A DNA stretch of 64,000 bases from sequence record MK295203, one strand, 5' to 3'. Within the stretch, counting starts at the first letter, position 1. Each line of letters begins with the position of its first letter. The position numbers were made by a program, and so were the translations under genes. This document shows positions 13,391 through 34,210 of the stretch, one piece after another. Below the pieces are notes generated by a model that saw only the letters and a list, made by a program, of their open reading frames with translations, had not been told where the DNA came from and did no database searches. This DNA is from Escherichia phage vB_EcoM_005.

Positions 13391-13804
13391 ATGTTTGCCA
13401 ACGCTATTACTGTTAAAGATATCCAAGTTAAAACCATTCGTACTGATTCCAACCCACATAATCAAAACCGTATCCGTAAATCATGGGTACTGAATATTGA
13501 TACCAACTCTGCACGTCGCCTGCAATCTCTTCCACAAGAAACTAAGTTCATGCTCTACGGTATCATTGATAACGACGTATCCGATAAGTGGGTAGAAATT
13601 ATGCGTCGCCACTATAATGATTCACTGGCCGCAGGTGCTAAACTGGTTATCGACCGTGATGGTTCTGAACGTCTCGAAGATGATTATTGCGTAGATTTTG
13701 ACGAACAACTGCTTGAAGCTGGTGCTATTGTTGCTTCCCAGATTCCAGAGTATATTGAATCTCTGCCTGAATCCATTCGTAAACAAATGATCGTTATTGC
13801 TTAA
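13391..13804 (+). CDS. hypothetical protein at the T4 rpbA position (RpbA-like by synteny only)
   Basis: 137-aa ORF between 46 and 45 downstream of a middle promoter; no sequence-level confirmation. Confidence 0.4.
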   Translation: MFANAITVKDIQVKTIRTDSNPHNQNRIRKSWVLNIDTNSARRLQSLPQETKFMLYGIIDNDVSDKWVEIMRRHYNDSLAAGAKLVIDRDGSERLEDDYCVDFDEQLLEAGAIVASQIPEYIESLPESIRKQMIVIA

Positions 13805-13832: not shown

Positions 13833-14531
13833 ATGAAATTCTCTAAAGAAACTCTGAACATTCTGAAAAACTTCTCCGGTATTAACCCAGGTATCATGCT
13901 TAAACCTGGTAACACTATTCTAACTCGTTCAGTAACGGGTGCAAGTTATGGTGAAGCTACTGTAAATGACACCTTTGATATCGAAGCCGCAATTTATGAT
14001 TTGAACGGCTTCTTAAGTATTCTGTCATTGGTATCTGATAGTGCTGAAGTTTCGGTAAGTGAAGACCAAACCACTTTAATTATTAAAGACCAACGTTCAA
14101 CTATTAAGTGGCCTATTGCCGACCCAAGCACAATTGCATTCCCAAGCAAAGCTATTCCGTTCCCAGTGGCTGAAGTTATTTTTGACCTTAAAGCTGAAGA
14201 TTATCAACAGTTGATGCGGGTGTCCTCTGGACTGAGTATTGATACATTTGCTATTACTGTAGACAATGGTAAAATTGTAATCAATGGTTACAAACAAGTT
14301 GATGATAAGGACCTGGCACGCCCATTGTATTCCTTAGTGGTTGCAGACCATGATGGCCCTGAATTCAAATTCATTATTAACAAAACTAATATGAAAATGA
14401 TGCCGGCCGATTACCATGTTCTGTTATGGGCACGCGGTGAAGGTCAGGACGCTCGTTTCGCTGCTAAGTTTGAAGGTTCACAAGCTTCTTACGTATTAGC
14501 TATGGAAGCAGGCTCAAGCCACTCGTTCTAA
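13833..14531 (+). CDS. 45: sliding clamp gp45
   Basis: 232 aa; near-colinear with my recollection of T4 gp45 (SGINPGIML, AAIYDLNGFL, NKTNMKMMPADY, LLWARGEG). Confidence 0.92.
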   Translation: MKFSKETLNILKNFSGINPGIMLKPGNTILTRSVTGASYGEATVNDTFDIEAAIYDLNGFLSILSLVSDSAEVSVSEDQTTLIIKDQRSTIKWPIADPSTIAFPSKAIPFPVAEVIFDLKAEDYQQLMRVSSGLSIDTFAITVDNGKIVINGYKQVDDKDLARPLYSLVVADHDGPEFKFIINKTNMKMMPADYHVLLWARGEGQDARFAAKFEGSQASYVLAMEAGSSHSF

Positions 14532-14995
14532 TGTATATATGTTATCATAATACGATAACCAACACTAAAACCAAGTGTGTCTATCATTATTTTGGTAGAC
14601 ACCGTGTTACTGCTGAAGAATACTACGGTACAGGTAAGTTTGTTAAGAAATGCAAACGAGAAAATGCTATTACTCCAGGTCTTTGGGAGTTTTGTGTTGA
14701 AGTTATCCATACAGTGGATACGTTTAAAGAAGCCAAGATTATTGAAGAAGAGCTTGTTAAAGAAGGCATATCAAAATATGGTATCCTTTGTGTTAATAAG
14801 AATCCTGGTGGTGATGGCGGTGTGGATTACCACACCGAAGAATCTAAACGTAAAATGTCAGAAACTAGAACAGGAAAATCAAGAATATTTTCCGAAAGTC
14901 ATAAAGAAAATTTAAGTAAACGAGCCAGAAAATACTCTGATGTTTGGTCCGAACCTGTATATTCAAATCTTAAAACCATTTGGCTGGAAACAGGT
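14531..14995 (+). CDS. degenerate GIY-YIG/NUMOD endonuclease-like module, in frame with gene 44
   Basis: 155 codons with no stop before the gp44 Met; VYHYFG...YYGTGK (GIY-YIG-like) and HTEESKRKMSE / SESHKENLSK (NUMOD3-like); start overlaps gene 45 stop (TAATG). Confidence 0.45.
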
Positions 14996-15967
14996 ATGTT
15001 ATTAAATGGTTTAACTATTAATGAAAACGACTTCATGTGGGAACAGAAATATCGTCCAGGTACTTTATCTGAGTGTATTCTGCCTGCGCATGATAAAGAA
15101 ACCCTCCAAGCCATTGTTAATAAGGGCCTAATCCCTAACATTATCCTAGTCTCTGCTTCACCAGGCACAGGTAAAACTACCGTAGCTAAAGCATTGTGTG
15201 CTGATACAAATTCAGATATGCTGTTTGTTAACGGTTCTGACTGCCGTATTGATTTCGTTCGTAACGAACTTACTCGTTTTGCATCTTCTAAATCTATCGA
15301 AGGTAAGCGTAAGGTAATTGTTATCGACGAATTCGACCGCGCTGGTGTTGCTGAAGCTCAACGTCACCTTCGTTCGTTCTTAGAAGCCTATTCCTCAAAC
15401 TGTTCTGTAATTATTACAGCAAACAATATTGATGGTATTATCGGTCCACTTCAATCCCGTTGTCGTGTTATTAAATTTGGTGAAGCCACTCCAGCCGACC
15501 AAACATCCATGATGAAAGAAATGATTCATCGTGCTGTAGCAATCTGTAAAAACGAAAATATCGAAGTCGAAGACCTTAAAGTTATTGCCGCTTTAGTTAA
15601 ACAAAACTTTCCTGACTTCCGTAAAACAGTTAACCAACTGGACCGTTACTCATCCAGTGGTAAAATCGATACAGGCATTTTGAGTATTGTAATGAATACC
15701 AATTCGCCTATCGATGAAGTAGTGGCTGCACTTAAAGATAAAAACTTTAAAGAACTCCGTGCATTAGCTCCACGCCATGTCAATGACTATTCCAACTTTA
15801 TTATGTCACTGGCTAACGAACTCTATGGTAAATTGCCTGGACCAAGCATTGTTAGAATGTATGAAATTGTCGGTGAAAATAACCAATACCACGGTATTGC
15901 GGCTAACCCAGAAATTCACATGACTTATCTGTTCATCCAACTTGCTCTGGAGCTCCAATGGCTATAA
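14996..15967 (+). CDS. 44: clamp-loader large subunit gp44
   Basis: AAA+ Walker A SPGTGKTT, Walker B VIVIDEFD, sensor IITANN; high identity to my recollection of T4 gp44 from MLLNG..EQKYRPG onward. Confidence 0.9.
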   Translation: MLLNGLTINENDFMWEQKYRPGTLSECILPAHDKETLQAIVNKGLIPNIILVSASPGTGKTTVAKALCADTNSDMLFVNGSDCRIDFVRNELTRFASSKSIEGKRKVIVIDEFDRAGVAEAQRHLRSFLEAYSSNCSVIITANNIDGIIGPLQSRCRVIKFGEATPADQTSMMKEMIHRAVAICKNENIEVEDLKVIAALVKQNFPDFRKTVNQLDRYSSSGKIDTGILSIVMNTNSPIDEVVAALKDKNFKELRALAPRHVNDYSNFIMSLANELYGKLPGPSIVRMYEIVGENNQYHGIAANPEIHMTYLFIQLALELQWL

Positions 15968-17098: not shown

Positions 17099-19711
17099 AT
17101 GCAAGAATTCTATTTGACAGTCGAACAAATCGGTGATAATATTCTCGAACGTTACATCGATAAAAATGGTAACGAACGTAGTCGTGAAGTTCCTTACAAG
17201 CCTACAATGTTTATGCATGCTAATCCAGAGCAAGCCGTAAAATACATTGATATCTATGGTAAGGGTTGTGTTAAGAAAGAATTCGACTCTATGCGTGATG
17301 CATCCCAATGGATGAAACGTATGGACGATATGGGTCTCGAAGCCCTGGGTATGGACGACTATAAATTAGCCTATTTGTCTGATACCTATCGTAAAGAAAT
17401 CAAATACGATTCTTCTAAGATTCGTATTGCTAACTTCGACATCGAGGTAACATCTCCTGATGGATTCCCTGAACCAGCTCAGGCTAAACATCCTATCGAT
17501 GCCATTACCCACTACGACTCGATTGACGATAAATTCTATGTATTCGACCTTTTAGTTTCACCTTATGGTACCGTTGAAGAGTGGTCTATTAAAATCGCTG
17601 AGAAACTCCAAGAAGAAGGTGGTGACGAAGTTCCACAAGAAATCATTGACAAAATCGTTTATCTTCCGTTTAATTCCGAAGAAGAAATGATGCTTGAGTA
17701 TCTGAATTTCTGGCAGCAGAAAACTCCTGTTATTTTGACTGGTTGGAACGTTGAGTCGTTTGACGTACCATACGTTTATAACCGTCTGAAAAATCTGTTT
17801 GGTGAGAACACTGCTAAGCGATTAAGCCCACACCGTAAGACTCGTGTTAAAGTTATCGAGAACATGTATGGTGCTCGTGAAATTATTACACTGTTCGGTA
17901 TCTCTGTTCTGGATTATATCGACCTTTATAAAAAATTCAGCTTTACCAACCAGCCTTCTTATTCTTTGGATTATGTTTCTGAATATGAATTGAAAGTAGG
18001 TAAGTTGAAATATGATGGTCCAATCTCCAAGTTACGTGAGACGAACCACCAACGATATATTTCCTATAACATTATCGACGTATATCGTGTAGTGCAGATT
18101 GATATGAAACGCCAGTTCATTCTTCTGAGTTTGGACATGGGTTATTATGCTAAGATGCAGATTCAGTCGGTGTTCAGTCCAATTAAGACTTGGGACGCTA
18201 TTATCTTTAATAGCCTTAAAGAACAAGGCAAGGTCATTCCACAAGCTCGTTCACACGTGGTCCAACCTTATCCTGGTGCTTTCGTTAAGGAACCTATTCC
18301 TAACGCATACAAATATGTAATGAGTTTTGACCTTACATCTCTGTACCCGAGTATTATTCGACAAGTGAATATAAGCCCAGAGACCATCGCAGGCACATTC
18401 GCTAATGCACCGATACATGAATATATTGCCGGAACAGCTCCGCGTCCTAGCGACGTCTACAGTTGCTCTCCTAACGGCATGATGTACTATAAAGACCGTG
18501 ATGGTGTGATTCCTACAGAAATCACTAAGGTGTTCTTACAACGTAAAGAACATAAAGGTTATATGCTTGCAGCTCAACGTAATGGCGAGTTAATTAAAGA
18601 AGCATTAGAAAATCCTAATCTGTCAGTTGATAGTCCACTGGATATCGATTATCGTTTTGACTTCTCTGACGAAATCAAAGCCAAGATTAAAACGCTGTCA
18701 GCACCTTCTTTAAAAGAAATGTTGTTCAGAGCCGAACGTACTGAAGTCGCAGGTATGACTGCTCAGATTAACCGTAAGTTGCTTATCAACTCCCTTTATG
18801 GTGCACTTGGTAACGTATGGTTCCGTTACTATGACCTCAGGAACGCAACTGCAATCACACTGTTTGGTCAAATGGCCCTCCAATGGATTGAACGTAAGGT
18901 TAACGAATATCTGAACAGCGTGTGTAAGACTGAAAATCAGAAGTTCGTGCTCTATGGTGATACTGACTCCATTTATGTTAAGGCAGATGCAATCATCAAT
19001 AAAGTAGGCGAAGATAAATTCCGTGACACTAACCACTGGGTCGACTTCTTAGATAAATTTGCACGTGAACGTATGGAACCGGCTATTGATGCAGGCTTCC
19101 GTGAGATGTGCGAGTACATGAACAACAAACAACACTTGATGTTCATGGACCGAGAAGCTATCGCAGGTCCTCCACTTGGTTCTAAAGGTCTTGGTGGATT
19201 CTGGACAGGCAAGAAACGTTATGCACTTAACGTTTGGGACATGGAAGGCACTCGTTATGCCGAACCACACTTGAAAATCATGGGTCTCGAAACTCAGAAA
19301 TCAAGTACACCTAAAGCGGTTCAGAAAGCTCTGAAAGAATGTATCCGTCGTATGCTTCAGGAAGGCGAGGCATCTTTGCAAGAATATTTCAAACAGTTTA
19401 ATAAGGAATTTAACGAACTGGACTATGTAAGCATTGCAGCAGTATCCAGTGCTAACAACATCGAGAAATATAATGAAGGCGGATTGGTATATGTACTGCC
19501 ACTTAAAGAAGGCAACCCATTCGGTGAAGCCTGTATGGCATGGCCGTCAGGTATTGAACTTCCGATTCAGATTCGTGACCAAGTCCTCCGTTGGATGGAC
19601 TACAACGTACTGTTCCAAAAGACCTTTATCAAGCCTCTGACTGGTTTTACCGAGTCTGCTAAAATCGACTACGAGAAAAAAGCAACATTATTTGACATGT
19701 TTGACTTTTAA
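17099..19711 (+). CDS. 43: DNA polymerase gp43 (family B)
   Basis: 870 aa from MQEFYLTVEQIG; exonuclease FDIEV, pol motifs SLYPSII, NSLYG, YGDTDS; closest in my recollection to the RB69 polymerase. Confidence 0.95.
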   Translation: MQEFYLTVEQIGDNILERYIDKNGNERSREVPYKPTMFMHANPEQAVKYIDIYGKGCVKKEFDSMRDASQWMKRMDDMGLEALGMDDYKLAYLSDTYRKEIKYDSSKIRIANFDIEVTSPDGFPEPAQAKHPIDAITHYDSIDDKFYVFDLLVSPYGTVEEWSIKIAEKLQEEGGDEVPQEIIDKIVYLPFNSEEEMMLEYLNFWQQKTPVILTGWNVESFDVPYVYNRLKNLFGENTAKRLSPHRKTRVKVIENMYGAREIITLFGISVLDYIDLYKKFSFTNQPSYSLDYVSEYELKVGKLKYDGPISKLRETNHQRYISYNIIDVYRVVQIDMKRQFILLSLDMGYYAKMQIQSVFSPIKTWDAIIFNSLKEQGKVIPQARSHVVQPYPGAFVKEPIPNAYKYVMSFDLTSLYPSIIRQVNISPETIAGTFANAPIHEYIAGTAPRPSDVYSCSPNGMMYYKDRDGVIPTEITKVFLQRKEHKGYMLAAQRNGELIKEALENPNLSVDSPLDIDYRFDFSDEIKAKIKTLSAPSLKEMLFRAERTEVAGMTAQINRKLLINSLYGALGNVWFRYYDLRNATAITLFGQMALQWIERKVNEYLNSVCKTENQKFVLYGDTDSIYVKADAIINKVGEDKFRDTNHWVDFLDKFARERMEPAIDAGFREMCEYMNNKQHLMFMDREAIAGPPLGSKGLGGFWTGKKRYALNVWDMEGTRYAEPHLKIMGLETQKSSTPKAVQKALKECIRRMLQEGEASLQEYFKQFNKEFNELDYVSIAAVSSANNIEKYNEGGLVYVLPLKEGNPFGEACMAWPSGIELPIQIRDQVLRWMDYNVLFQKTFIKPLTGFTESAKIDYEKKATLFDMFDF

Positions 19712-19713
19712 GT

Positions 19714-19743
19714 GTTTACATACCACATGGAACGTGGTAGTAT
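19714..19743 (+). promoter_or_regulatory. T4-type early promoter
   Basis: GTTTAC 19714-19719, TAGTAT 19738-19743, CCTATCAAC leader. Confidence 0.5.
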
Positions 19744-19774
19744 CCTTCCTATCAACTACTTAGAGGAAATTACA

Positions 19775-20011
19775 ATGGAAGCTTTAATCGTTAGTGCTGG
19801 TGTTTTAGGATTCGGTTCTCTGGCTATTATGTTCATTGGTTACTTTTTACCATGGATTTTAGCTCTTCTGCGAGGCACTCGTAGTAATGTAGGAATTTTC
19901 TTCCTTAATCTCCTGTTAGGTTGGACGATGATTGGTTGGGTAGTGGCTTTAATCTGGGCTATCGCTGCTGAACGTAAATCAAATGCACAAATCATTATTG
20001 TTAAACAGTAA
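19775..20011 (+). CDS. small two-TM membrane protein at the T4 imm position (Imm-like by synteny)
   Basis: 78 aa, two hydrophobic helices, directly downstream of gene 43. Confidence 0.5.
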   Translation: MEALIVSAGVLGFGSLAIMFIGYFLPWILALLRGTRSNVGIFFLNLLLGWTMIGWVVALIWAIAAERKSNAQIIIVKQ

Positions 20012-20020
20012 GGGAATCCA

Positions 20021-20521
20021 ATGAAAAAGTTAATTATCGCAATGAGTATGCTCCTATCAGGTTGCGCAGTCCAATATGGTGATGCAGTTTCGGCCGATGA
20101 AGTTGGTAAAGCTCGTATCGCAGCTGAACAGAAACAATTCGATGGCGAAATGAAATTCCGTGCAGGTTCAGGACTTGTGTATACCCGAGCTAATAATCAA
20201 TGTGGTAATAACTGTGCAAAATATGCTCAACATGAAATCGAATTCCAACGTGAACAAGAGTCCAAGCGTGAAGCGGTACTAGCCAAACACCAGGCAGAAA
20301 TGAAGCGCCAAGATGATTTGTATAAAAAGCAGAAATTGTATGCGATGTGCGTAAACCATATCAATCTACAGATTTCTATCCATGAGGCCCGTTATTACGA
20401 AATGCTCGAAACCGAGAGCTTTGATAAGGCCCGTGATTATAAGAAACAAATCAATAAGCTCAAGACCAAAGTGCCGGCAGCAATAGAACAGTGTATCGAA
20501 ATCGGTAAAGATAAGATTTAA
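20021..20521 (+). CDS. predicted lipoprotein
   Basis: signal peptide with lipobox LLSGC; 166 aa. Confidence 0.5.
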   Translation: MKKLIIAMSMLLSGCAVQYGDAVSADEVGKARIAAEQKQFDGEMKFRAGSGLVYTRANNQCGNNCAKYAQHEIEFQREQESKREAVLAKHQAEMKRQDDLYKKQKLYAMCVNHINLQISIHEARYYEMLETESFDKARDYKKQINKLKTKVPAAIEQCIEIGKDKI

Positions 20522-20581
20522 GCAGTATCAATTTATTAAAAATAGTGTATAATGTACCTACATTCACTTGAGGAACAGATA

Positions 20582-22255
20582 ATGAAAAAGGTTGTTATTT
20601 TAGGCGCAGGTCTTGGCTCACGGTTGTATCCAATTACTAACGAAATCCCGAAGGTATTGGTTAACTACAAACAACATACAGTACTAAAACATTTATATGA
20701 TTTGTATAGTAACCAATCAGATGAAATTATTCTGGTTATTCACAGCAAATTTAACGACCTCGTTAAAGGCTATATTAAATCCATTAACATGATTAATAGT
20801 GATAAGCCTAAATTCACTATTCGTAACGTAGATGTGGCCAATGGTTCAGCTCATGCTATCGATTGCATTGCTGAAGATATCATTGGCCATAACGTCCTGT
20901 TTAACTGGTGTGACATCATTCCTGAGGGTCATAAAGTTGAGTGGGATAACGACTACTGTTATACCTACGGGACTGACTGTCGTTTTACATTTGAAGAACC
21001 GTACTTGCGTGAAATTGGTACTGGCGGTGGCGTGGTTGGTTTGTATCAGGTGGCTAATTGGACAGGTTTCGACCGTTCTAATTATGGTGAAGACCTTGCC
21101 GATAACCTAGATTCAATGGTCTATTTGACTGAACGTAAGCTAGACTTTGTAGTTGATGTCGGTGACAAATTGAAACTGGCTAAGGCCCATGAAGAATCCG
21201 AAATTAACCGTGAATTTAATAAATTAGAGTTCACTGAGAATCTGGCTATTAAAGTACCAACTAACGAATTAGGTAAAGAAATCCAATCTAAAGAAATCAA
21301 TTGGTATAATTCTATTGATTCTGAATTTGTTCCGAGCATTGTAGACTTTGCTCCAGGCGAATTCATTAAAATGGAACGTATCTTTGGTCGCACCATGGCA
21401 GATGCCTACCGGTTTATGTCTAAAGAAACTAAAGTCCTCATGGTTTATAAGGTCATTAGTGCATTACGTTCATTCGGTGGAACTATCGATAACCCATCTG
21501 ATGAGCAATGGTATTCCGATGTTAAGAAAGAAGTATTGGACAAGGTCCTGATTCGTAATGCTTCTATTGCCGGATTGATTGAAGGCTTTGCTCCACAGGG
21601 TATTACCCATGTCAATGACTTTAAGGTAGGCGACCCTGAAAAACTTCTTCGTCATGCACTAGAAATTCTGTCTGAACATAAAGAACCGTACCAACTTATT
21701 CATGGCGACCCGCACTACAGTAATATTATGTTGTCTGACGAAGGTGATATTAAAATCATCGACCCACGTGGTTATTTTGGTAATAGTTCTAAAGGCCCTG
21801 CGATTTATGATGAAGCTAAGGTGCTTTATTCTATCGATGGTTATGACAAATTTAACTCTGACCCTCTATGGGGTGGCTTAACCCGTAACGGAACTCGTGT
21901 ATTCGTTGATATTGAAAAGGTCATGCCTTTAGACGATATTCCGATGTGTACATTTAAGCACAAGCTCTGGATTGCTGTTATCTGGATGGCATTGGCAGGT
22001 TACTTTAAAAATAACCCTCTGAAAGCTCTGGGTGCTTATTACAATGGGCTATATCAACTGAGCGTGCTGCTGAAGCGGCATCCTCGTAAGCGTAAGCTTA
22101 TCACAGGTGAATTTGTCGATGAAGTTCGTGACCCTATTACGGCTCAAATTATCACTCGTTGTCCTGATAAGTGGGTTTTGCTTGACCAAGAAACTGGTGT
22201 AAAATATAAACCTACAGGTTCTACTGAACTCCACAAACAATGGAAGAAAATTTAA
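20582..22255 (+). CDS. bifunctional sugar-1-phosphate nucleotidyltransferase / APH-family kinase
   Basis: N-terminal ILGAGLGSRLYPIT...PK (sugar nucleotidyltransferase signature); C-terminal HGDPHYSNIML...IIDPRGYFG (aminoglycoside/choline-kinase-like catalytic loop). Confidence 0.6.
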   Translation: MKKVVILGAGLGSRLYPITNEIPKVLVNYKQHTVLKHLYDLYSNQSDEIILVIHSKFNDLVKGYIKSINMINSDKPKFTIRNVDVANGSAHAIDCIAEDIIGHNVLFNWCDIIPEGHKVEWDNDYCYTYGTDCRFTFEEPYLREIGTGGGVVGLYQVANWTGFDRSNYGEDLADNLDSMVYLTERKLDFVVDVGDKLKLAKAHEESEINREFNKLEFTENLAIKVPTNELGKEIQSKEINWYNSIDSEFVPSIVDFAPGEFIKMERIFGRTMADAYRFMSKETKVLMVYKVISALRSFGGTIDNPSDEQWYSDVKKEVLDKVLIRNASIAGLIEGFAPQGITHVNDFKVGDPEKLLRHALEILSEHKEPYQLIHGDPHYSNIMLSDEGDIKIIDPRGYFGNSSKGPAIYDEAKVLYSIDGYDKFNSDPLWGGLTRNGTRVFVDIEKVMPLDDIPMCTFKHKLWIAVIWMALAGYFKNNPLKALGAYYNGLYQLSVLLKRHPRKRKLITGEFVDEVRDPITAQIITRCPDKWVLLDQETGVKYKPTGSTELHKQWKKI

Positions 22256-22638
22256 TGTCGCATCGAGTAGAAAATAAGCCCCATTTATGTTTTGACATCG
22301 ATAATACAATCACGGTTTGGAACCATGACCGTGATTACGAAAACTTTAAACCGGACACCGAAATGGTGTCCATGATTAATAAGCTTTATGATGAAGGGTA
22401 CGAGATTACATTGTTCACTGCTCGTGGTATGACTTCATGTGGCCCTGGTCGAATCTTGGTTGAAGTAGTTCCTGCATTGGTTAAGAACCTTGAAAAGATT
22501 GGATTGAAATATCATAATCTGCTTACACATAAGCCGAGTTATACTTTTATCATCGATGACCGAGCAATCCGTCCTGACCACTTTAAAGAAATGGTTCGTG
22601 AAGGAACTCTTGAAACCTATAAGGCATATCATCCATGA
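22255..22638 (+). CDS. small HAD-superfamily phosphatase
   Basis: motif I FDIDNTIT (DxDxT), motif II TLFTARG, C-terminal IIDDR; 127 aa. Confidence 0.5.
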   Translation: MSHRVENKPHLCFDIDNTITVWNHDRDYENFKPDTEMVSMINKLYDEGYEITLFTARGMTSCGPGRILVEVVPALVKNLEKIGLKYHNLLTHKPSYTFIIDDRAIRPDHFKEMVREGTLETYKAYHP

Positions 22639-23171
22639 AACCAAAAATCATTGTTATCGACGGCCCGGATAATTCCGGGAAGTCCACTTTAATTGAATCA
22701 CTTTTATCTGATAAGAAATATCGTCTTATTGATTTTCCTAAAAAGATTAACGGTAAATGCATTTCATTAGGGACCGATAATGACAAGGCTTTAGTCGAGA
22801 CGTTGTATAAGTTTTTAGACCCTAATTTTGTCTACATCTTAGACCGTGGGTATCCTAGTAATATTGTTTACTCGGGATTCCTTCGTGGTGAAATGGACCC
22901 TTATGTAGAACTGGAAGATTGGAAAGGGTTTAAATCTGAATTCAATATTATTGAGGTTATTTTAACCCGTAACCCATTAGATGAAGACTTCGAAGATGAC
23001 CTTATTAAATTAACCAAAGATGAGTTCAACCTAACTATCCGGCAGTATGAAACATGTTTTGAAAACGTGTTTAAAATCTTAAATCACGACGGCCATAATA
23101 ATTTGCTTAATGTTGATATGGTAGAATTAAAACGTCTGAATGAATATATTGAAAATAAGGTGAATAAATGA
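22635..23171 (+). CDS. P-loop kinase (dNMP/thymidylate-kinase-like)
   Basis: N-terminal Walker A IVIDGPDNSGKST; 178 aa. Confidence 0.5.
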   Translation: MKPKIIVIDGPDNSGKSTLIESLLSDKKYRLIDFPKKINGKCISLGTDNDKALVETLYKFLDPNFVYILDRGYPSNIVYSGFLRGEMDPYVELEDWKGFKSEFNIIEVILTRNPLDEDFEDDLIKLTKDEFNLTIRQYETCFENVFKILNHDGHNNLLNVDMVELKRLNEYIENKVNK

Positions 23172-23866
23172 AACACATTACCGCTGTTAGTTTTGAAAAC
23201 GCGTTTAAGCAAATGAACGAAGAAATCCTGGAAGCTCCACAGTTTGCAGTTGATTCTCGTATCGGCCGTTGTTATGAAATTGGTTCTGCTTCGGTAGAAG
23301 TACTGGATGCAAGCACCTATAAATTCACCGACCCTCGTATTAATCGTATCAACTATGATTATGCCGAATCTTTCTGGAAATTTATGATTTCTGGTGGTAC
23401 TGATGCCGCCGAAGCATTTAAGGAATACCCTAATGTTGCTAAGTTCATTGATAAGCCGAAAAGTGACGTATTGCCTGCAAACTTCAACACTTTCTATGGA
23501 CCTCGAATTGTGGCCCAACTCCCAGCCCTACTTAAAGAGCTTAAAGAAAAGCCTAACTCGAGACGAGTTGTGTTCCAAATTCTCCAAGAACAAGACCAAG
23601 CTCTCCTTGATTCTGACGAATCCTTAGAATATCCGTGTACCGATTCGGTAACATATTATATTCGTGATGGACGTCTGTATGCACACACTCATATGCGTTC
23701 ACAGAACTGTGCTATCGTTATGCAGCTGGATTTCTATCTGCAGGGTAAACTGATGGCCTTTATTGCTGAACAGTGTGGTGTTGGTCTGGGTACGTATTCC
23801 CATACTATGGTTAGTGCACACGTGTTTGAACGTGATTTTGACTACGTTCGAGGATTCCTGAAATGA
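23168..23866 (+). CDS. thymidylate-synthase-fold pyrimidine hydroxymethylase (gp42-like)
   Basis: catalytic Cys context EYPCTDSVTYYIRD and MRSQN..D align with my recollection of T4 gp42 (FMCTNTVQYLIRD / MRSND); much more divergent from T4 than neighbouring core genes. Confidence 0.6.
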   Translation: MKHITAVSFENAFKQMNEEILEAPQFAVDSRIGRCYEIGSASVEVLDASTYKFTDPRINRINYDYAESFWKFMISGGTDAAEAFKEYPNVAKFIDKPKSDVLPANFNTFYGPRIVAQLPALLKELKEKPNSRRVVFQILQEQDQALLDSDESLEYPCTDSVTYYIRDGRLYAHTHMRSQNCAIVMQLDFYLQGKLMAFIAEQCGVGLGTYSHTMVSAHVFERDFDYVRGFLK

Positions 23867-24657
23867 GTCTGTTTATCGTTCCTATTTTCAGTATGCGTAG
23901 TTACGAAACAGGTGAATATGCCGTCCTTAAGGACGGTAATTTTCAACTCCATTTAAACCGTGCTCGCCCAGGTGATTATCTGGCTTATCCTAGAAATTCG
24001 AGCGATATCAAAGAATGTATTGAATTGTTTCCTGAACTGAATTTTGTGCCACTTTGGTATAAAGAAAATGCTTATGAAACTCGTAAACATTTTTGGTCTG
24101 AAAATGAGTTCGTCGTTGATTCATTAATTGAATACTATGACTGTTCAGGCTTAGTAACCGATATCACAGGTTATGATGGCACTCAGACTGTACAATTCAA
24201 CTTTAACATTACAATGGACCCTGAAGTTCCTCGTTATTATATCGATGAGTTTATTGATATCGACGTGTCTTCAGTTGAACGTTCGATTTATACTACAGTC
24301 CTGAATCAATGCCAGAAAGACGTCCTGGTGTCACGAGGTGCGTCCTCTGATAAGATTTTTGTAGACCAAAAGGTAATTAATCCCGCAGTAATTGAGCGTT
24401 ACTCTGAAGGTCTAGCGCCTATTAAAATTGATGGTATTTTCCATCCATTCCGTATCTCAGATAAATGCTACCAATTCGAAAGAGTTGTAGACCAAGCTGC
24501 GGCCGTATATTATCAGATTCTGAAATCAAGACCTCATATCATTTATCATGAGAATCCTGGTTTAGTATTCCATCCTGGTCTGGCTGAATTCATTTATTTC
24601 GGTGCCCACATCCATTCTGAGCACGAAATGCCAAGTTATGAGGACGTAGTATGCTAG
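23863..24657 (+). CDS. hypothetical protein at the T4 beta-gt position (candidate DNA glycosyltransferase)
   Basis: 264-aa ORF between gp42-like gene and uvsX; contains a DxD-like FIDIDVSS motif; no confident fold assignment. Confidence 0.45.
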   Translation: MSLFIVPIFSMRSYETGEYAVLKDGNFQLHLNRARPGDYLAYPRNSSDIKECIELFPELNFVPLWYKENAYETRKHFWSENEFVVDSLIEYYDCSGLVTDITGYDGTQTVQFNFNITMDPEVPRYYIDEFIDIDVSSVERSIYTTVLNQCQKDVLVSRGASSDKIFVDQKVINPAVIERYSEGLAPIKIDGIFHPFRISDKCYQFERVVDQAAAVYYQILKSRPHIIYHENPGLVFHPGLAEFIYFGAHIHSEHEMPSYEDVVC

Positions 24658-24782
24658 GTCCTTTATTGCTTTTTATAATTTTGTTATTATTCTCTTTCGG
24701 AGCCTTGTTATTATTATGCTGGCTCGAGAAACGAGAAGTCCGGAAGATAGTCGATAAGGCTATCAACCGAGGAATAAAATAA
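24651..24782 (+). CDS. small membrane peptide
   Basis: 43-aa hydrophobic ORF below track cutoff. Confidence 0.3.
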   Translation: MLGPLLLFIILLLFSFGALLLLCWLEKREVRKIVDKAINRGIK

Positions 24783-24859
24783 CGCTGTAAATGTGAAGTG
24801 ATATAATTACCCTATCTTAAAACGTGAGTAAAATATAATGGTGCCTATGGAAAAATATA

Positions 24860-26032
24860 ATGTCCGATTTAAAATCCCGTTTGATTAAAGCTTCTACTTC
24901 TAAAATGACTGCCGACCTGACCAAATCTAAATTGTTTAATGGTCGTGACGAAGTTCCTACTCGTATCCCTATGCTGAATATTGCATTAGGTGGTGCGTTG
25001 AATGCAGGCTTACAATCAGGTTTGACAATCTTTGCTGCTCCATCTAAACACTTTAAAACGTTGTTTGGACTTACCATGGTTGCGGCATATATGAAGAAAT
25101 ATCCAGACGCAATTTGTTTGTTCTATGACTCTGAGTTCGGTGCTTCAGAATCTTATTTCCGTTCGATGGGTGTTGATTTGGAACGTGTGGTTCATACACC
25201 AATCCAGTCGGTCGAACAGCTTAAAGTTGATATGACTAACCAGTTAGAAGAAATTACTCGTGGCGAAAAGGTTATTATCTTTATCGACTCCATTGGTAAT
25301 ACTGCTTCTAAGAAAGAAACCGAAGATGCTTTGAACGAGAAAGTTGTAGGTGATATGACTCGTGCTAAGTCACTGAAATCTCTGTTCCGTATCGTAACAC
25401 CTTATCTGACCATCAAGGATATCCCTTGTGTAGCAATTAACCACACTGCTATGGAAATTGGTGGAATGTATCCTAAAGAGATTATGGGTGGCGGTACTGG
25501 TATTCTGTACTCTGCTTCTACCGTGTTCTTTATCTCTAAACGTCAGGTTAAAGATGGTACTGAGCTCACTGGTTATGACTTCACACTGAAGGCTGAGAAA
25601 TCTCGTACGGTTAAAGAGAAGTCAACGTTCCCTATCACCGTTAACTTCGAAGGTGGCATTGACCCGTTTAGTGGATTGCTTGAAATGGCTACTGATATCG
25701 GCTTTGTCGTGAAACCTAAAGCAGGTTGGTATAATCGTGCATTCCTTGACGAAACCACGGGTGAAATGGTTCAAGAAGAAAAAGCATGGCGTGCTAAAGC
25801 TACCGATTGTGTTGAGTTCTGGGGACCGCTGTTTAAACATGCTCCGTTCCGTGAAGCAATCGAGAATAAGTATAAGCTTGGTGCAATTAATTCTATTAAA
25901 GAAGTTGACGATGCAGTGAACGACCTTATTAACTCTCGTGTCTCTAAGAACGTTGCTGTTAAATTAGGTGGAAATACCCAAAGCGCCGCTGATATCGAAA
26001 ACGATTTAGAAGAGATGGATTTAGATGACTGA
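24860..26032 (+). CDS. uvsX: recombinase UvsX (RecA-like)
   Basis: 390 aa; MSDLKSRLIKASTSK, Walker A AAPSKHFKT, near-colinear with my recollection of T4 UvsX. Confidence 0.95.
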   Translation: MSDLKSRLIKASTSKMTADLTKSKLFNGRDEVPTRIPMLNIALGGALNAGLQSGLTIFAAPSKHFKTLFGLTMVAAYMKKYPDAICLFYDSEFGASESYFRSMGVDLERVVHTPIQSVEQLKVDMTNQLEEITRGEKVIIFIDSIGNTASKKETEDALNEKVVGDMTRAKSLKSLFRIVTPYLTIKDIPCVAINHTAMEIGGMYPKEIMGGGTGILYSASTVFFISKRQVKDGTELTGYDFTLKAEKSRTVKEKSTFPITVNFEGGIDPFSGLLEMATDIGFVVKPKAGWYNRAFLDETTGEMVQEEKAWRAKATDCVEFWGPLFKHAPFREAIENKYKLGAINSIKEVDDAVNDLINSRVSKNVAVKLGGNTQSAADIENDLEEMDLDD

Positions 26033-26354
26033 TTTATCTGATTTAGATAATTTCGTTAAAGATACCGAAGAGGGTCCTAGTGACCCTCGGTATTATGAGA
26101 AATCATTAGATATAATCCGTAAGTCAATGGGTTCTGTTAAGCAGGAAATTATGCTTACTTTACCCGATGGCACTGCTCACATCGTTTATGTGATGAATAT
26201 TGTTATTGAGAAAGATGGAAAAGTGTCGGTTGATTTCGGAACACCTTCCGAAGACCGAAAAGAAGAGCTAGCGCTTCATGTAGAAAAATGTGTTACAATG
26301 CAAATACAAGAAGAACTGGATAAAATTAAATCTAAGAGGTGGTGGAAATGGTAG
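26025..26354 (+). CDS. hypothetical protein at the T4 gene 40 position
   Basis: 109-aa ORF between uvsX and 41; synteny only. Confidence 0.4.
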   Translation: MTDLSDLDNFVKDTEEGPSDPRYYEKSLDIIRKSMGSVKQEIMLTLPDGTAHIVYVMNIVIEKDGKVSVDFGTPSEDRKEELALHVEKCVTMQIQEELDKIKSKRWWKW

Positions 26355-27780
26355 AAACTATTTTGGCTCAACTGCTAGGCAATAGTGATTATTTCACTAA
26401 GGTCTGGCCTTATATGAATGATTCTTATTTTGACCAGGGTCCTGCAAAGACCCTTTTCAAAGAAATTAAAAAACACGTCAATGAATATAATGCAGTGCCT
26501 TCTAAGAACGCATTGAGCATTGCATTAGATAACAGTACGCTTTCAGAAGTTGAACATCAGGGCGCTAAAGAGCTTTTAAGTTCACTGAATGCCGGACCTG
26601 AAGACCAAGAATGGTTGGTTAAAGAGACGGAGAAATACGTTCAGAAAGCAGCGATGTATAATGCAACTTCAAAAATCATTGAAATCCAAACTAATGCCGA
26701 CCTTCCGGTTGAGCAACAAAATAGAAAACTTCCAGGTATTGGTGCTATTCCTGGATATCATGCGTGATGCATTATCGATTTGTTTCGATTCTGAATTAGG
26801 TCATGACTGGATGGATGACTATGAAGAACGATTCAAAAGTTATTCCGATAAAGCACGTAAGGTTCCGTTCCGTCTTAATATTCTGAATAAGATTACCAAG
26901 GGTGGTGCCGAGTTTGGTTACTGAAAACGTATTGTTGGCAGGAACAAACGTAGGTAAGTCTCTTGGCCTGTGTTCATTGGCTGCTGATTACCTTCAATCA
27001 GGTTACGATGTTCTTTATATCTCCATGGAGATGGCAGAGGAAGTATGTGCTAAGCGTATAGATGCCAACCTTCTGGATGTATCGCTGGATGATATCGATG
27101 ATGGTCATGTCTCTTGGCCTGAATATAAAGCTAAGATGGATAAATGGCGTTCAACTGCTACCTTAGGTCGTTTAAAGATTAAACAGTATCCTACTGGTGG
27201 TGCTAATGCCGATACCTTCCGTGCATTATTAAACGAATACAAGCTCAAACAAAACTTTGTGCCGCAGGTCGTTATCGTCGACTACTTGGCCATTTGTGCA
27301 TCGTCTCGTACTAAAGTTTTCTCTGAAAACAGTTACGGATTGATTAAGATGGTAGCCGAAGAACTACGTGGACTGGCAGTAGAGAAGAAATTATTGTTGT
27401 GGACAGCAGCCCAGACTACTCGTGGTGCGAACGTTGCGGCCGAAATCGATATGGCTGATATTGCTGAATCATTTGGTATTGCACATACTGCAGACTTCAT
27501 GTTAGGTGTGGTCGAGACAGAAGAGTTTGCTCAGATGGGTATGCAAATGGTTAAGCAGCTTAAATCTCGTTACGGCGATAAGAGCTACTACAACAAATTT
27601 AAGATTGGCGTTAAGAAAGGAAACCAACGTTGGTATGAAGTTGAAGACGATTCCAACCCAGGCCCGGTGAACACTGTTCGTGAGGCTACAGGTGAGATGA
27701 ATCGTCAAGCCGAGGTCAATCGTCAGACGCGTGTTAATAGAAGTGATTTAGACGATTTAGCAGCATCTATCAAATTTTAA
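26348..27780 (+). CDS. 41: replicative DNA helicase gp41 (DnaB-like), interrupted by two apparent +1 indels
   Basis: three consecutive ORFs in three frames (to 26767, 26589-26924, 26902-27780) together colinear with my recollection of T4 gp41; Walker A GTNVGKS; frame changes near 26754 and 26918. Confidence 0.85.
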
Positions 27781-30145: not shown

Positions 30146-30676
30146 ATGGGTTCAGGAGGGCCTTTAAGTAGGGCAAAGGAAAAATACGGGCTGGAAAATT
30201 TCGAAAGAGAAATTCTAGAGTTTTTCCCTAATGAAGACCTAATGAACGAAGCTGAGGCAGCTATAGTAACTAAAGAATTTATTAAAAGACCCGATGTTTA
30301 TAATGCTGTGCCGGGCGGCAGAAGTTTTAGAGTAGGCCCGACGGAAAATTATGATTCTAAACGGCATTCAGAAGTCCAGATAAAAAGCTGGGATAATCCT
30401 GAAAAAAGGGCCAAGCAAGCCAAAACTATAAAAGCTATCGCATGGAAAGAATGGGATAATTTAGAGGAAGTAAAAATCCGACATAAAGAATCCTGCAGTA
30501 AAGCACAAAGAAAACATAAAGCCTGGAAAGATTATAATGTATTAAAAGAGATTTGGGTTAAATTAGGAAAACCTGGATACGGTAGGTTTAATAATGAATT
30601 AATTAAGCTTGGTTACGAAAAAAGAAATTACCAAAGAATGGTAGATGCTTTTAATAAAGAGGAAGAACTAGTATGA
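30146..30676 (+). pseudogene. GIY-YIG homing endonuclease remnant (N-terminally truncated)
   Basis: begins inside the catalytic domain (KYMGSGG...KEKYGLENFEREILE); NUMOD-like linker; C-terminal module shared with the two HNH ORFs downstream. Confidence 0.5.
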
Positions 30677-33412: not shown

Positions 33413-34210
33413 ATGGGAACTTTTAGAGGTCATGATTACTTAAAAATTATAGATAAGTATAAACTAAACGTCCATACCAAATCTAAAACTGAAGCTCATC
33501 ATATACTTCCGAAGTGTGCATTTCCAGAATACAGCGATTTTAAAATCTCTCCTTGGAATAGGGTGTATCTTCCTATATACCAACACATATATGTTCATTA
33601 TCTTTTGTGCTCAACTAAGGTGTCGGGTTTGCTTAATGCATTCCAGAGAATGACACTAACAAATAGTGCCCAGTTTAAGAAGCTTTCTGATTTAGAGAAA
33701 GACCTTACTATTAAGTTATGGGCCGATAAACGTGGGGAGTGGATAGAGCAAGACATTCTCCGTAAAAGAAAATCCTTTATGTATTCTAATTTTGATTTCT
33801 GGTATAATGACTGGATTTCGCGGGATATGCCTCGCTATCGAAGATATTGGGGAGTTTTGGTTGAAGAAAATAATCCGGAAGTTTTAGGTACCCACAAAAA
33901 TAGTTTATTGACAGTGGTAAAAGATTTTTGTTTGAGATACGCAGAAGAACATAATTTATCTGAAGAAGAAGTTTTGAGTCTTCAAAAATTAAAACAGTCT
34001 TCAGAAAAAGCTTTAAAAGATAAAGGAAAAACTTTAAGTAAAACTGCTAGAGGCAATCAACTCAAATGGAATTATGAAACTGAGCTTAGGAATTTATGGA
34101 TTGCTAATAACAAACCAAAATATGTGAATTTCAGAAAGCTAGTGGTTAGCTTAGGCTACCCGGATGAAAATTATATAAACATGATAAAGAGGTTTGAAAA
34201 TGGGTTCTGA
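33413..34210 (+). CDS. HNH homing endonuclease
   Basis: TEAHHILPKCAFPEYSD...NRVYLP...HIYVH (HNH motif); start codon lies within a 92-bp repeat derived from gene 56. Confidence 0.65.
   Translation: MGTFRGHDYLKIIDKYKLNVHTKSKTEAHHILPKCAFPEYSDFKISPWNRVYLPIYQHIYVHYLLCSTKVSGLLNAFQRMTLTNSAQFKKLSDLEKDLTIKLWADKRGEWIEQDILRKRKSFMYSNFDFWYNDWISRDMPRYRRYWGVLVEENNPEVLGTHKNSLLTVVKDFCLRYAEEHNLSEEEVLSLQKLKQSSEKALKDKGKTLSKTARGNQLKWNYETELRNLWIANNKPKYVNFRKLVVSLGYPDENYINMIKRFENGF

What the first reader, a model, noticed from the sequence alone, without database searches (positions are those of the whole stretch)
23863..24657. Unassigned 264-aa ORF occupying the beta-glucosyltransferase slot
This ORF lies exactly where T4 encodes beta-gt (between gene 42 and uvsX) and is translationally coupled to the gp42-like gene (ATGA overlap). 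It has no similarity I can recognise to T4 alpha-gt or beta-gt, is too small for their two-domain fold, and contains a DxD-like motif (FIDIDVSS) of the kind found in single-domain GT-A glycosyltransferases. It is the best candidate in the window for a novel DNA sugar transferase.
Basis: inference. Interest (0 to 1): 0.7.

Follow-up and report, generated by a model that had tools for sequence, protein, structure and literature searches.

The report
Phage DNA arabinosyltransferase gene, assembly-truncated
This gene is the Dhakavirus copy of an already-published candidate enzyme that most likely attaches the first arabinose sugar to 5-hydroxycytosine in phage DNA, and its odd 264-aa length comes from a 99-base assembly gap in the deposited genome, not from biology.

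Summary
The ORF (23863-24657, +) is real. It overlaps the upstream gene by ATGA and sits between the ThyA-like gene and uvsX. The window is Escherichia phage vB_EcoM_005 (Dhakavirus).

**What it is.** It is the orthologue of RB69 gp46:47, DLP3 gp79 and Thanatos TH1_063. Lee et al. (NAR 2026) proposed this family as "arabinosyltransferase 1".

**Substrate.** The upstream "gp42-like" gene carries the Asn signature of 5-hydroxy-dCMP synthases and is 78% identical to RB69 gp48. The acceptor is therefore 5-hydroxycytosine, not hmC, and the sugar is arabinose.

**Length.** The window lacks 33 residues, including the family-invariant TDPN and K246. Exactly 99 nt are also missing at eight or so other sites, including genes 43 and 46, and gene 41 has two frameshifts. 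This is an assembly artefact.

**Still open.** No one has shown transfer activity for this family. Dhakaviruses lack the second (gp3-type) transferase, so mono-arabinosylation is predicted.

The parts
23863..24657 (+). Target ORF. As deposited it encodes 264 aa (YP_010100624.1, labelled 'RNA polymerase binding protein'). It is the orthologue of the 297-aa GT-B-fold protein of other Dhakaviruses and of RB69 gp46:47, DLP3 gp79 and Thanatos TH1_063, the putative 5-hydroxycytosine arabinosyltransferase 1.
24503..24507 (+). Junction of the 99-nt gap. Window bases 24504-24506 (CGT) replace 102 nt present in relatives. At protein level A214|V215, with 33 residues lost: the end of a helix, two core beta-strands of the C-terminal Rossmann domain, and the invariant T222-D-P-N225 and K246.
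23850..23866 (+). Translational coupling signal: GAGGA Shine-Dalgarno (23850-23854) and the ATGA start/stop overlap (23863-23866) with the upstream gene.
   Evidence: (sequence read directly)
23168..23866 (+). ThyA-superfamily gene, 232 aa. Predicted FMN-dependent 5-hydroxy-dCMP synthase that makes the acceptor base, not a dCMP hydroxymethylase. It is 78% identical to RB69 gp48, 79% to the HY126 enzyme and 27% to T4 gp42. It carries the diagnostic Asn (MRSQN) where T4 gp42 has Asp (MRSND).
22635..23171 (+). P-loop, thymidylate-kinase-like nucleotide kinase, 178 aa (RB69 gp45 type, 37% identical). Presumed kinase for the modified dCMP.
22240..22638 (+). HAD-family phosphatase, 132 aa (RB69 gp51 / HY126 AfhF type, 63% identical). 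Proposed to convert arabinofuranose-1,5-bisphosphate to arabinofuranose-1-phosphate.
20552..22255 (+). Bifunctional protein, 567 aa: N-terminal sugar-1-P nucleotidyltransferase and C-terminal APH-like kinase (RB69 gp52:53 / HY126 AfhE type). Proposed arabinose-5-P kinase plus UDP-arabinose pyrophosphorylase.
24651..24782 (+). 43-aa hydrophobic ORF that overlaps the target's stop codon by 7 nt. Present in IME08 and IME341, absent from ABTNLsp5. Its membership in the system is doubtful.

Best explanation
The ORF is the Dhakavirus orthologue of the RB69 gp46:47 / DLP3 gp79 / Thanatos TH1_063 family. This is a compact (about 297 aa) sequence-orphan protein with a GT-B glycosyltransferase fold, always encoded directly after the phage's 5-hydroxy-dCMP synthase.

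Most likely pathway:
1. The ThyA-like enzyme hydroxylates dCMP at C5. The upstream kinase and the normal dNTP route make 5-hydroxy-dCTP, which replaces dCTP in replication.
2. The AfhE-type and AfhF-type enzymes convert arabinose-5-phosphate to UDP-arabinofuranose.
3. This protein binds UDP-arabinofuranose in its C-terminal Rossmann domain. Candidate binding residues are the invariant F-x-P-F-R-I-S-D-x-x-Y loop after the first strand, T-D-P-N, K246 and H-P-G.
4. It transfers the first, base-proximal arabinose to the 5-hydroxyl of 5-hydroxycytosine. Its closest structural neighbours are retaining GT4 enzymes, which fits the alpha linkage reported for that sugar.

Dhakaviruses lack the second (RB69 gp3-type) transferase, so their DNA is predicted to carry mono-arabinosylated 5-hydroxycytosine.

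The 264-aa form in this window is not the real protein. The 33 missing residues reflect a 99-nt contig-joining artefact in the deposited vB_EcoM_005 genome.

Shown here: orthology, fold, gene linkage, the hydroxylase signature, and the artefact pattern. Taken from the literature: 5-hydroxycytosine chemistry, hydroxylase activity, and AfhE/AfhF activities. Inferred: donor, acceptor, order of action, stereochemistry, and residue roles.
For: Orthology:
- 69% identity to RB69 ORF047c over aa 1-179 and 63% to ORF046c over aa 184-297 (tblastn).
- 66% to the HY126 orthologue and 51% to Thanatos TH1_063.

Fold:
- AlphaFold2 model of the 297-aa homologue: pLDDT 95.6, pTM 0.90, two beta/alpha/beta domains.
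- Foldseek returns only GT-B structures, including MshA 3c4q. These are the same top hits Lee et al. report for RB69 gp46:47.

Linkage:
- The gene lies immediately after a ThyA homologue with the Asn signature in the window, RB69, HY126, Thanatos and two jumbo-phage contigs at about 36% identity.
- A thymidylate-kinase-like gene and AfhE/AfhF/SIS genes sit alongside.

Sole candidate transferase:
- No gp3-type enzyme is found in the window or in any Dhakavirus record.
- The T4 alpha-gt slot holds no alpha-gt homologue.

Literature:
- RB69 and DLP3 DNA carry alpha-linked arabinose on 5-hydroxycytosine, and gp46:47 and gp79 are proposed as the first transferase. Mono-arabinosylated Thanatos encodes only this type.

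Artefact:
- Exactly 99 nt are missing versus two relatives after window positions 5818, 12296, 12774, 16915, 19485, 24503, 35708 and 42376, plus 98 nt after 44940. 127 nt are missing after 38787 and 255 nt after 40156.
- The gene 43 gap removes 33 residues conserved even in RB69.
- Gene 41 has two +1 frameshifts.
- The record is 155 kb, against about 170 kb for relatives.
Against: - No member of this family has been shown to transfer arabinose. Purified DLP3 gp79 alone gave no activity on 5-hydroxycytosine DNA with UDP-Araf or UDP-Arap (Lee et al., data not shown).
- Lee et al. state they cannot tell whether the first sugar goes on the nucleotide or on DNA.
- The only positive biochemistry is different. 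Thanatos TH1_063 made UDP-xylose from UTP and xylose-1-P.
- No Pfam or NCBIfam glycosyltransferase model matches any of the 68 members, and no conserved E-x7-E motif is present.
- The family is acidic (median pI 5.2, against 9.05 for T4 beta-gt), which is unusual for a DNA-binding enzyme.
- No analysis of Dhakavirus DNA chemistry was found.
- I could not read He et al. 2026 or Mahler et al. 2025, which may assign the first step differently.
- The artefact reading rests on comparison with relatives, not on the raw reads.
Confidence: 0.6

Rival explanations
1. Same enzyme family and same sugar, but it acts before replication. It arabinosylates the free nucleotide (5-hydroxy-dCMP), and the adjacent thymidylate-kinase-like kinase then phosphorylates the glycosylated nucleotide for incorporation by the polymerase.
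For: - The order hydroxylase, then this protein, then a TMK-like kinase is conserved even in jumbo-phage contigs at about 36% identity. The three genes are translationally coupled here.
- The family is acidic, median pI 5.2.
- DLP3 gp79 was inactive on 5-hydroxycytosine DNA, and Lee et al. explicitly leave nucleotide versus DNA open.
Against: - Every characterised phage DNA glycosylation is post-replicative, including DLP3 gp76/77 acting on DNA.
- A bulky arabinosyl-dCTP would have to be accepted by the polymerase.
- T4 alpha-gt and RB69 gp3 are also mildly acidic (pI 6.1 and 6.3), so charge is weak evidence.
- The extra kinase is equally explained by a need to phosphorylate 5-hydroxy-dCMP.
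Confidence: 0.15
2. The family is a UDP-pentose-forming enzyme (a sugar-1-phosphate uridylyltransferase), as claimed for Thanatos TH1_063. It is not the transferase that modifies the base.
For: - Brandt et al. detected UDP-xylose from UTP plus xylose-1-P with purified TH1_063, and saw no transfer from UDP-xylose to DNA, dCMP, dCTP or cytosine.
- TH1_063 is a true orthologue (51% identity, E 2e-96).
Against: - The fold is GT-B, not the nucleotidyltransferase fold. There is no NTP_transferase match, and all structural neighbours are glycosyltransferases, epimerases or phosphorylases.
- The cluster already encodes a bona fide nucleotidyltransferase domain (PF00483), whose HY126 homologue AfhE is reported as the UDP-arabinose pyrophosphorylase.
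- The negative transfer assays used unhydroxylated acceptors and xylose, which are now known to be the wrong substrates.
- UDP-xylose formation could reflect reverse or phosphorolytic GT-B chemistry with UDP present in the UTP (my inference).
- Without this protein, Dhakaviruses and Thanatos would have no transferase at all.
Confidence: 0.08
3. The 99-nt deletion is real. Phage vB_EcoM_005 carries an internally deleted, probably inactive transferase and packages unglycosylated or differently modified 5-hydroxycytosine DNA.
For: - The deletion is in frame, and the exact 264-aa product is in the GenBank/RefSeq record.
- Citing papers say a Bas46 arabinosyltransferase (Aat) deletion mutant is viable.
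Against: - The same exact length (99 nt) is missing at about eight other sites, including two in essential gene 46 and one in the DNA polymerase thumb. The gaps have mismatched junction bases of the same style.
- Gene 41 has two frameshifts.
- None of 50 Dhakavirus records shares the deletion.
- The record is 15 kb shorter than its relatives.
- The deleted segment holds five residues invariant in 68 of 68 homologues, and the model collapses around the junction.
Confidence: 0.07
4. A GT-B-fold enzyme that is not a transferase, for example a UDP-sugar 2-epimerase-like or hydrolysing enzyme that remodels the nucleotide sugar.
For: The top Foldseek hits by E-value are UDP-GlcNAc 2-epimerases (7vza, 2e-6).
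Against: - The proposed route from arabinose-5-P to UDP-Araf needs no epimerase.
- This reading would leave phages that lack a gp3-type enzyme with no transferase.
Confidence: 0.05
5. One reading: a novel single-domain GT-A, DxD-dependent transferase that acts on hmC-DNA.
For: The sequence FIDIDVSS exists, and the ORF occupies the beta-gt slot.
Against: - Two-domain GT-B model at pLDDT 95.6, with only GT-B hits.
- D132 is not conserved (15 of 68).
- The neighbouring enzyme makes 5-hydroxy-dCMP, not hm-dCMP.
Confidence: 0.01
6. The database label is correct: it is an RNA polymerase binding protein (RpbA-like).
For: RefSeq and UniRef names for this cluster.
Against: - No similarity to the window's true RpbA at 13349-13804 (E = 37).
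- The genuine rpbA sits next to gene 45 in IME08 and T4.
- The fold is GT-B.
Confidence: 0.01

Closest known systems
RB69 gp46:47 (ORF047c + ORF046c, one gene split by a sequencing error) and DLP3 gp79: putative '(alpha-)arabinosyltransferase 1' of Lee et al., Nucleic Acids Res 2026 (PMC13326640)
   Different: In Dhakavirus the kinase gene lies upstream of the hydroxylase rather than downstream of the transferase. The cluster here lacks the arabinose-5-P isomerase, gp49, gp50 and the second transferase gp3. The window copy lacks 33 residues, which is an artefact. Activity is unproven for all members.
Shewanella phage Thanatos TH1_063 (Brandt et al., AEM 2025, PMC12838424)
   Same: Orthologue: 51% identity over the full length, with the same synteny. 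It is the sole GT-B protein of a phage with a single pentose on cytosine.
   Different: It was reported as a UDP-xylose pyrophosphorylase in vitro. That activity fits neither the fold nor the role proposed here.
RB69 gp3 / HY126 glycosyltransferase (PDB 9iqz, 9ir0) / Bas46-type 'hmC-arabinosyltransferase'
   Different: No detectable sequence relationship (profile search of the PDB). It is 366 aa with recognisable GT4 character. It is encoded between rIIA and gene 39, is absent from Dhakaviruses, and is proposed to add the second arabinose.
T4 alpha-glucosyltransferase (1y6f) and beta-glucosyltransferase
   Different: No sequence similarity. The donor is UDP-arabinofuranose rather than UDP-glucose. 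The acceptor is a 5-hydroxyl directly on the ring (ether-linked) rather than a hydroxymethyl group. The protein is smaller and acidic.
Bacterial GT4 retaining glycosyltransferases (sucrose-phosphate synthase 6kih, BshA 6n1x, PimA 2gej, MshA 3c4q, WaaG 8b5s)
   Different: 8-11% identity. No Pfam Glycos_transf_1 match in any of 68 members. No conserved E-x7-E. About 70-100 residues shorter, with a minimal five-strand C-terminal domain.

Membership tests
RB69 gp46:47 / DLP3 gp79 / TH1_063 family (putative arabinosyltransferase 1) | Full-length sequence homology to RB69 gp46:47 | tested here: met
   69% identity over aa 1-179 (E 5e-94) and 63% over aa 184-297 (E 2e-48). The window itself gave tblastn hits at 23863-24399 and 24412-24651. 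It matches PHROG 3891 at E 1.8e-136.
RB69 gp46:47 / DLP3 gp79 / TH1_063 family (putative arabinosyltransferase 1) | Encoded directly downstream of a ThyA homologue with the Asp169-to-Asn signature (5-hydroxy-dCMP synthase) | tested here: met
   The window has an ATGA overlap. MRSQN is present in the window, RB69 and HY126, MRSEN in Thanatos, and MRSQN / MRSNN in the jumbo-phage contigs L010 / L011. T4 gp42 has MRSND. Synteny.
RB69 gp46:47 / DLP3 gp79 / TH1_063 family (putative arabinosyltransferase 1) | Complete set of family-invariant residues (M11-R-S, D24-G-N, Y66, R74, F193-x-P-F-R197, D200, Y203, T222-D-P-N225, K246, H270) | tested here: not met
   T222, D223, P224, N225 and K246 (each 68 of 68) fall inside the 33 residues absent from the window. 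All the others are present. The absence is attributed to a 99-nt assembly gap, so the deposited sequence fails this feature but the real gene very probably does not.
RB69 gp46:47 / DLP3 gp79 / TH1_063 family (putative arabinosyltransferase 1) | Transfers arabinofuranose from UDP-Araf to 5-hydroxycytosine | not testable with these tools
   Not demonstrated for any member in the papers I could read.
GT-B fold glycosyltransferases | Two Rossmann-like beta/alpha/beta domains with an inter-domain cleft | tested here: met
CAZy GT4-type retaining transferases (Pfam Glycos_transf_1 and related) | Sequence match to GT4 profile models and a conserved E-x7-E motif in the C-terminal domain | tested here: not met
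   No Pfam glycosyltransferase hit in 68 of 68 members at E <= 1. NCBIfam gives none. The PDB profile search finds nothing. No E-x7-E at a conserved position: only 26 of 68 members have any such spacing, and the reference has none in its C-terminal domain.
   D132 is Asp in 15 of 68 (Glu in 25, others in the rest), and I133 is variable. D128 and D134 are conserved but are spaced D-x5-D.
T4 beta-glucosyltransferase / alpha-glucosyltransferase families | Sequence homology to T4 b-gt or a-gt | tested here: not met
T4 beta-glucosyltransferase / alpha-glucosyltransferase families | Acceptor is 5-hydroxymethylcytosine made by a gp42-type dCMP hydroxymethylase | tested here: not met
   The neighbouring ThyA homologue is the hydroxylase type (78% identical to RB69 gp48, 27% to T4 gp42, Asn signature). 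No other gp42 homologue was seen in the window.
RpbA RNA-polymerase-binding protein (current database label) | Homology to T4-type RpbA | tested here: not met
   BLASTP against the window's RpbA (13349-13801) gives E = 37. The true rpbA lies beside gene 45.
Sugar-1-phosphate nucleotidyltransferases (activity claimed for TH1_063) | Nucleotidyltransferase fold / PF00483-type signature | tested here: not met
   No NTP_transferase match for the ORF or for any of the 68 homologues. That domain is present instead in the 567-aa upstream protein. The activity itself is not testable here.

The most novel reading that the evidence does not exclude
This compact, acidic GT-B family may glycosylate the free nucleotide (5-hydroxy-dCMP) rather than DNA. 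It would work as a hydroxylase, glycosyltransferase and dedicated-kinase module that feeds arabinosyl-5-hydroxy-dCTP to the polymerase. That would be the first pre-replicative sugar modification of a DNA precursor. It could also explain why DLP3 gp79 was inactive on 5-hydroxycytosine DNA, and why TH1_063 shows odd sugar-nucleotide chemistry in vitro.
Probability: 0.15. Interest if true: 0.7.

Novelty: new member of a known kind. Interest (0 to 1): 0.3.

Why it matters
The enzyme that puts the first arabinose on 5-hydroxycytosine has not been shown biochemically, nor has the stage at which it acts. Dhakaviruses appear to be the minimal natural system for that question. They have one hydroxylase, one kinase, two sugar-activation genes and this single GT-B protein, with no second transferase and no phage isomerase. 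A defined assay or knockout in that system would be unambiguous.

There are also practical points:
- The gene is widely mislabelled as "RNA polymerase binding protein", and its neighbour as "dCMP hydroxymethylase" or "thymidylate synthase".
- The vB_EcoM_005 RefSeq record carries systematic 99-nt gaps that create false protein variants, and these have already propagated into RefSeq and UniRef.

Tried and rejected
- **Family libraries.** Pfam, NCBIfam and PHROG gave no functional name for the ORF.
- **PDB sequence search.** A profile search found nothing real. The solved HY126 transferase 9iqz looked promising but is the gp3-type enzyme.
- **Unread papers.** He et al. 2026 (Nat Chem Biol) and Mahler et al. 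2025 (Cell Host Microbe) are not held. A search on Afh gene names returned only unrelated papers. I therefore cannot say which Afh or Aat name, if any, this family carries, or whether those papers assign the first transfer differently.
- **Source contig.** The look-up of encoding contigs found no contig for the exact 264-aa product. The source was identified through the cluster look-up instead.
- **Promoters and terminators.** Scans of 19600-25000 were at chance level: 19 promoter-like sites against 16.5 +/- 4.7 expected, and 4 terminator-like sites against 3.2 +/- 1.9. One "terminator" is simply the artefact junction.
- **Engineered deletion.** I considered this because the junction creates CGGCCG. 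I rejected it once the same 99-nt gap appeared at many unrelated sites.
- **Natural microhomology deletion.** TGAA flanks both ends in relatives. I rejected this for the same reason, and because the junction bases do not match either flank.
- **Protein charge.** pI as evidence against DNA binding is weak, because T4 alpha-gt and RB69 gp3 are also below pI 7.
- **Residue mapping.** Conserved residues could not be mapped onto GT4 catalytic positions, because model coordinates and structural alignments were not available to me.
Full report
**1. The observation**

An ATG-initiated ORF runs 23863-24657 on the + strand and encodes 264 aa. Its start codon overlaps the stop of the upstream ORF 23168-23866 as ATGA, and a GAGGA Shine-Dalgarno sits 8 nt upstream. 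Downstream lie a 43-aa hydrophobic ORF (24651-24782) and uvsX (24860-26032). The slot corresponds to b-gt in T4, whose order is 43, imm, 42, b-gt, uvsX.

**2. Source and the length problem**

Megablast places the window in the genus Dhakavirus: IME08 at 97.6% identity, with Bp7, JS98 and others also matching. An exact-sequence look-up identifies the product as YP_010100624.1 of Escherichia phage vB_EcoM_005. That genome is 155,101 bp, and the protein is labelled "RNA polymerase binding protein".

Every relative matched in two pieces. Alignment shows that relatives encode 297 aa and that the window lacks 33 residues after A214. At DNA level, 102 nt are replaced by CGT at 24504-24506. All 50 other Dhakavirus records carry the segment. 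In an alignment of 68 homologues, the segment contains T222-D223-P224-N225 and K246, each invariant in 68 of 68.

**3. The deletion is an assembly artefact**

I compared about 40 kb of the window with two relatives, IME08 and ABTNLsp5.
- The window lacks exactly 99 nt after positions 5818 (nrdH), 12296 and 12774 (both in gene 46), 16915, 19485 (gene 43, DNA polymerase), 24503 (this ORF), 35708 (modA.3) and 42376.
- It lacks 98 nt near 44940, 127 nt after 38787 (dda) and 255 nt after 40156 (dexA) (gene names).
- The gene 43 gap removes 33 residues that are conserved even in RB69 gp43, and it has a mismatched junction residue of the same style as in the target ORF.
- The essential helicase gene 41 carries two separate +1 insertions that split it across three frames.

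Independent natural deletions would not share one exact length, and they would not be tolerated in essential replication genes. From my own knowledge, 99 and 127 are standard de Bruijn k-mer sizes. That points to overlaps having been trimmed from both contigs when they were joined. This last step is an inference.

I conclude, with about 0.9 confidence, that the real gene encodes the 297-aa protein. The "264 aa, too small for two domains" premise is not biological.

**4. What the protein is**

Sequence libraries give no name. Pfam has no match, NCBIfam has none, and PHROG 3891 is "unknown function". None of the 68 homologues hits any Pfam glycosyltransferase model. A profile search of PDB sequences finds nothing real.

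Structure prediction is decisive.
- The 297-aa homologue models at pLDDT 95.6 and pTM 0.90 as two beta/alpha/beta domains.
- Foldseek returns only GT-B structures, including MshA 3c4q and UDP-GlcNAc 2-epimerases.
- The window's own truncated model still hits GT-B, but Z falls to 13.3. Residues 198-211 drop below pLDDT 50, and the first three strands of the C-terminal domain are lost.

The GT-A/DxD idea fails. D132 is Asp in only 15 of 68 homologues. The database label also fails, because there is no similarity to the true RpbA encoded at 13349-13804.

**5. Context and pathway**

The five upstream-to-target genes are packed with overlapping stop and start codons.
- A 567-aa protein with a sugar-1-P nucleotidyltransferase domain and an APH-like kinase domain.
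- A 132-aa HAD phosphatase.
- A 178-aa thymidylate-kinase-like P-loop kinase.
- The ThyA homologue.
- The target ORF.

All are homologous to RB69 genes. The identities are gp53 44% and gp52 41%, gp51 63%, gp45 37%, gp48 79% (tblastn; 78% in the alignment), and gp47 69% and gp46 49%.

Lee et al. (NAR 2026, PMC13326640) report the following.
- RB69 and DLP3 DNA contain arabinose ether-linked to 5-hydroxycytosine, not hmC.
- The ThyA homologues gp48 and gp80 are flavin-dependent 5-hydroxy-dCMP synthases, marked by Asn in place of ThyA Asp169.
- gp52:53 and gp51 correspond to HY126 AfhE and AfhF, which make UDP-arabinofuranose.
- gp46:47, a single gene split by a sequencing error, is the putative first arabinosyltransferase, and gp3 the second.
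- Dhakaviruses are among the genera that share the cluster.

I verified several of these points here.
- The window's ThyA homologue has the Asn signature (MRSQN, against MRSND in T4 gp42). It is 78-79% identical to the RB69 and HY126 enzymes and 27% identical to gp42.
- The 297-aa protein is 69% and 63% identical to RB69 ORF047c and ORF046c.
- The solved HY126 structure 9iqz is the gp3 type (E 5e-249), so it is not this family.

**6. Evidence beyond the papers**

- The gp3-type transferase occurs in 212 phage records, all either Mosigvirus-like or Acinetobacter/Tegunavirus phages. It is in no Dhakavirus, and the window has no hit to it.
- The window also has no hit to RB69 gp55 (arabinose-5-P isomerase), gp50 or gp49.
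- The target family occurs in 349 records.
- The target is therefore the only glycosyltransferase-fold candidate in this genus. That predicts mono-arabinosylation and reliance on host arabinose-5-P. Both are inferences.
- In the most distant homologues (about 36% identity, on 355-383 kb phage contigs), the order ThyA-like, then this protein, then a kinase-like gene persists. SIS, APH-kinase and Flavodoxin_2 genes lie nearby, and those ThyA homologues also carry the Asn.

**7. Mechanism**

The best-supported mechanism is this. The protein binds UDP-arabinofuranose in its C-terminal domain and transfers the base-proximal arabinose to the 5-hydroxyl of 5-hydroxycytosine.

Candidate donor-binding residues are the invariant F193-x-P-F-R197-I-S-D200-x-x-Y203 loop after the first C-domain strand, T222-D-P-N225, K246, H270-P-G and E/D275. 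These assignments rest on analogy to GT-B enzymes and are not structurally mapped.

The closest neighbours are retaining GT4 enzymes. That agrees with the alpha linkage Lee et al. report for the base-proximal sugar, and it is an inference.

**8. Caveats and rivals**

- No member of the family has shown transfer activity. DLP3 gp79 alone was inactive on 5-hydroxycytosine DNA, and the authors cannot say whether the first sugar is added to the nucleotide or to DNA.
- The orthologue in Thanatos, TH1_063 (51% identity), was reported to form UDP-xylose from UTP and xylose-1-P. It did not transfer to unmodified DNA, dCMP or dCTP.
- I read those negative results as assays with the wrong acceptor. I read the positive result as possible reverse or phosphorolytic GT-B chemistry, because the fold is not a nucleotidyltransferase fold and the cluster already has a dedicated pyrophosphorylase domain.
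- The conserved hydroxylase-transferase-kinase module and the family's acidity (median pI 5.2) keep a pre-replicative, nucleotide-level reaction alive as the most novel reading. I put it at about 0.15.
- I could not read He et al. 2026 or Mahler et al. 2025.

**9. Verdict**

The fold class, motif, substrate, sugar, size and novelty claims do not hold. The gene is a new member of a published, still biochemically unproven, family of phage DNA arabinosyltransferase candidates. Its unusual length is a database artefact.

Interest is modest at 0.3. What remains valuable is that Dhakaviruses offer the simplest system for settling how the first arabinose is installed.

Noticed in passing
window, after positions 5818, 12296, 12774, 16915, 19485, 24503, 35708, 42376, ~44940 (99 or 98 nt each); 38787 (127 nt); 40156 (255 nt): The deposited vB_EcoM_005 sequence lacks fixed-length blocks relative to two relatives. 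The gaps fall in nrdH, gene 46 (twice), gene 43, modA.3, dda, dexA and other genes. This looks like systematic contig-joining loss, with k-mer-like lengths. The record is about 15 kb shorter than its relatives, so many of its proteins in RefSeq and UniRef are probably false variants.
   Followed up: yes
window 26339-27780 (gene 41 helicase); extra bases near 26752-26754 and 26918-26919: The essential replicative helicase gene is split into three overlapping ORFs by two +1 insertions that are absent from IME08, IME341 and ABTNLsp5. These are most likely sequencing errors.
   Followed up: yes
window 23168-23866: The 'gp42-like' gene is a 5-hydroxy-dCMP synthase type (Asn signature MRSQN, 78% identical to RB69 gp48). 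Across database records it is annotated variously as dCMP hydroxymethylase, thymidylate synthase or hypothetical protein.
   Followed up: yes
window 24651-24782: A 43-aa strongly hydrophobic ORF overlaps the target's stop codon by 7 nt. It is nearly identical in IME08 and IME341, but the about 125-nt segment is absent from Salmonella phage ABTNLsp5. It is unannotated in IME08. It may be a small variable membrane peptide gene.
   Followed up: partly
window 20021-20521: A 166-aa ORF with a lipoprotein-like N-terminus (MKKLIIAMSMLLSGC) lies between imm and the arabinose-activation gene. It is conserved in IME08 (orf44) and has no Pfam assignment.
   Followed up: partly
L010 6426-6932 and L011 1-523 (jumbo-phage contigs carrying distant homologues): A Flavodoxin_2-family gene lies next to the ThyA-like hydroxylase and transferase cluster in both distant contigs. 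It could be a flavin reductase partner for the FMN-dependent 5-hydroxy-dCMP synthase. No equivalent was seen in the window's cluster.
   Followed up: no
window 9635-10390 (251-aa ORF), 14531-15967 (gene 44 with an extra ~160-aa N-terminal stretch), 30146-30676, 33413-34210: The window carries insertions of about 0.5-1.4 kb relative to IME08 and ABTNLsp5, including one in the T4 alpha-gt/mobB slot between a-gt.2 and gene 47. None of the inserted ORFs has a Pfam match. The gene 44 extension could be a fusion caused by another record error.
   Followed up: partly
window as a whole versus RB69 locus L005: The Dhakavirus cluster is a reduced version of the RB69 one. It has no arabinose-5-P isomerase (gp55), no gp49 or gp50, and no gp3. 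The kinase gene sits upstream of the hydroxylase instead of downstream of the transferase.
   Followed up: yes
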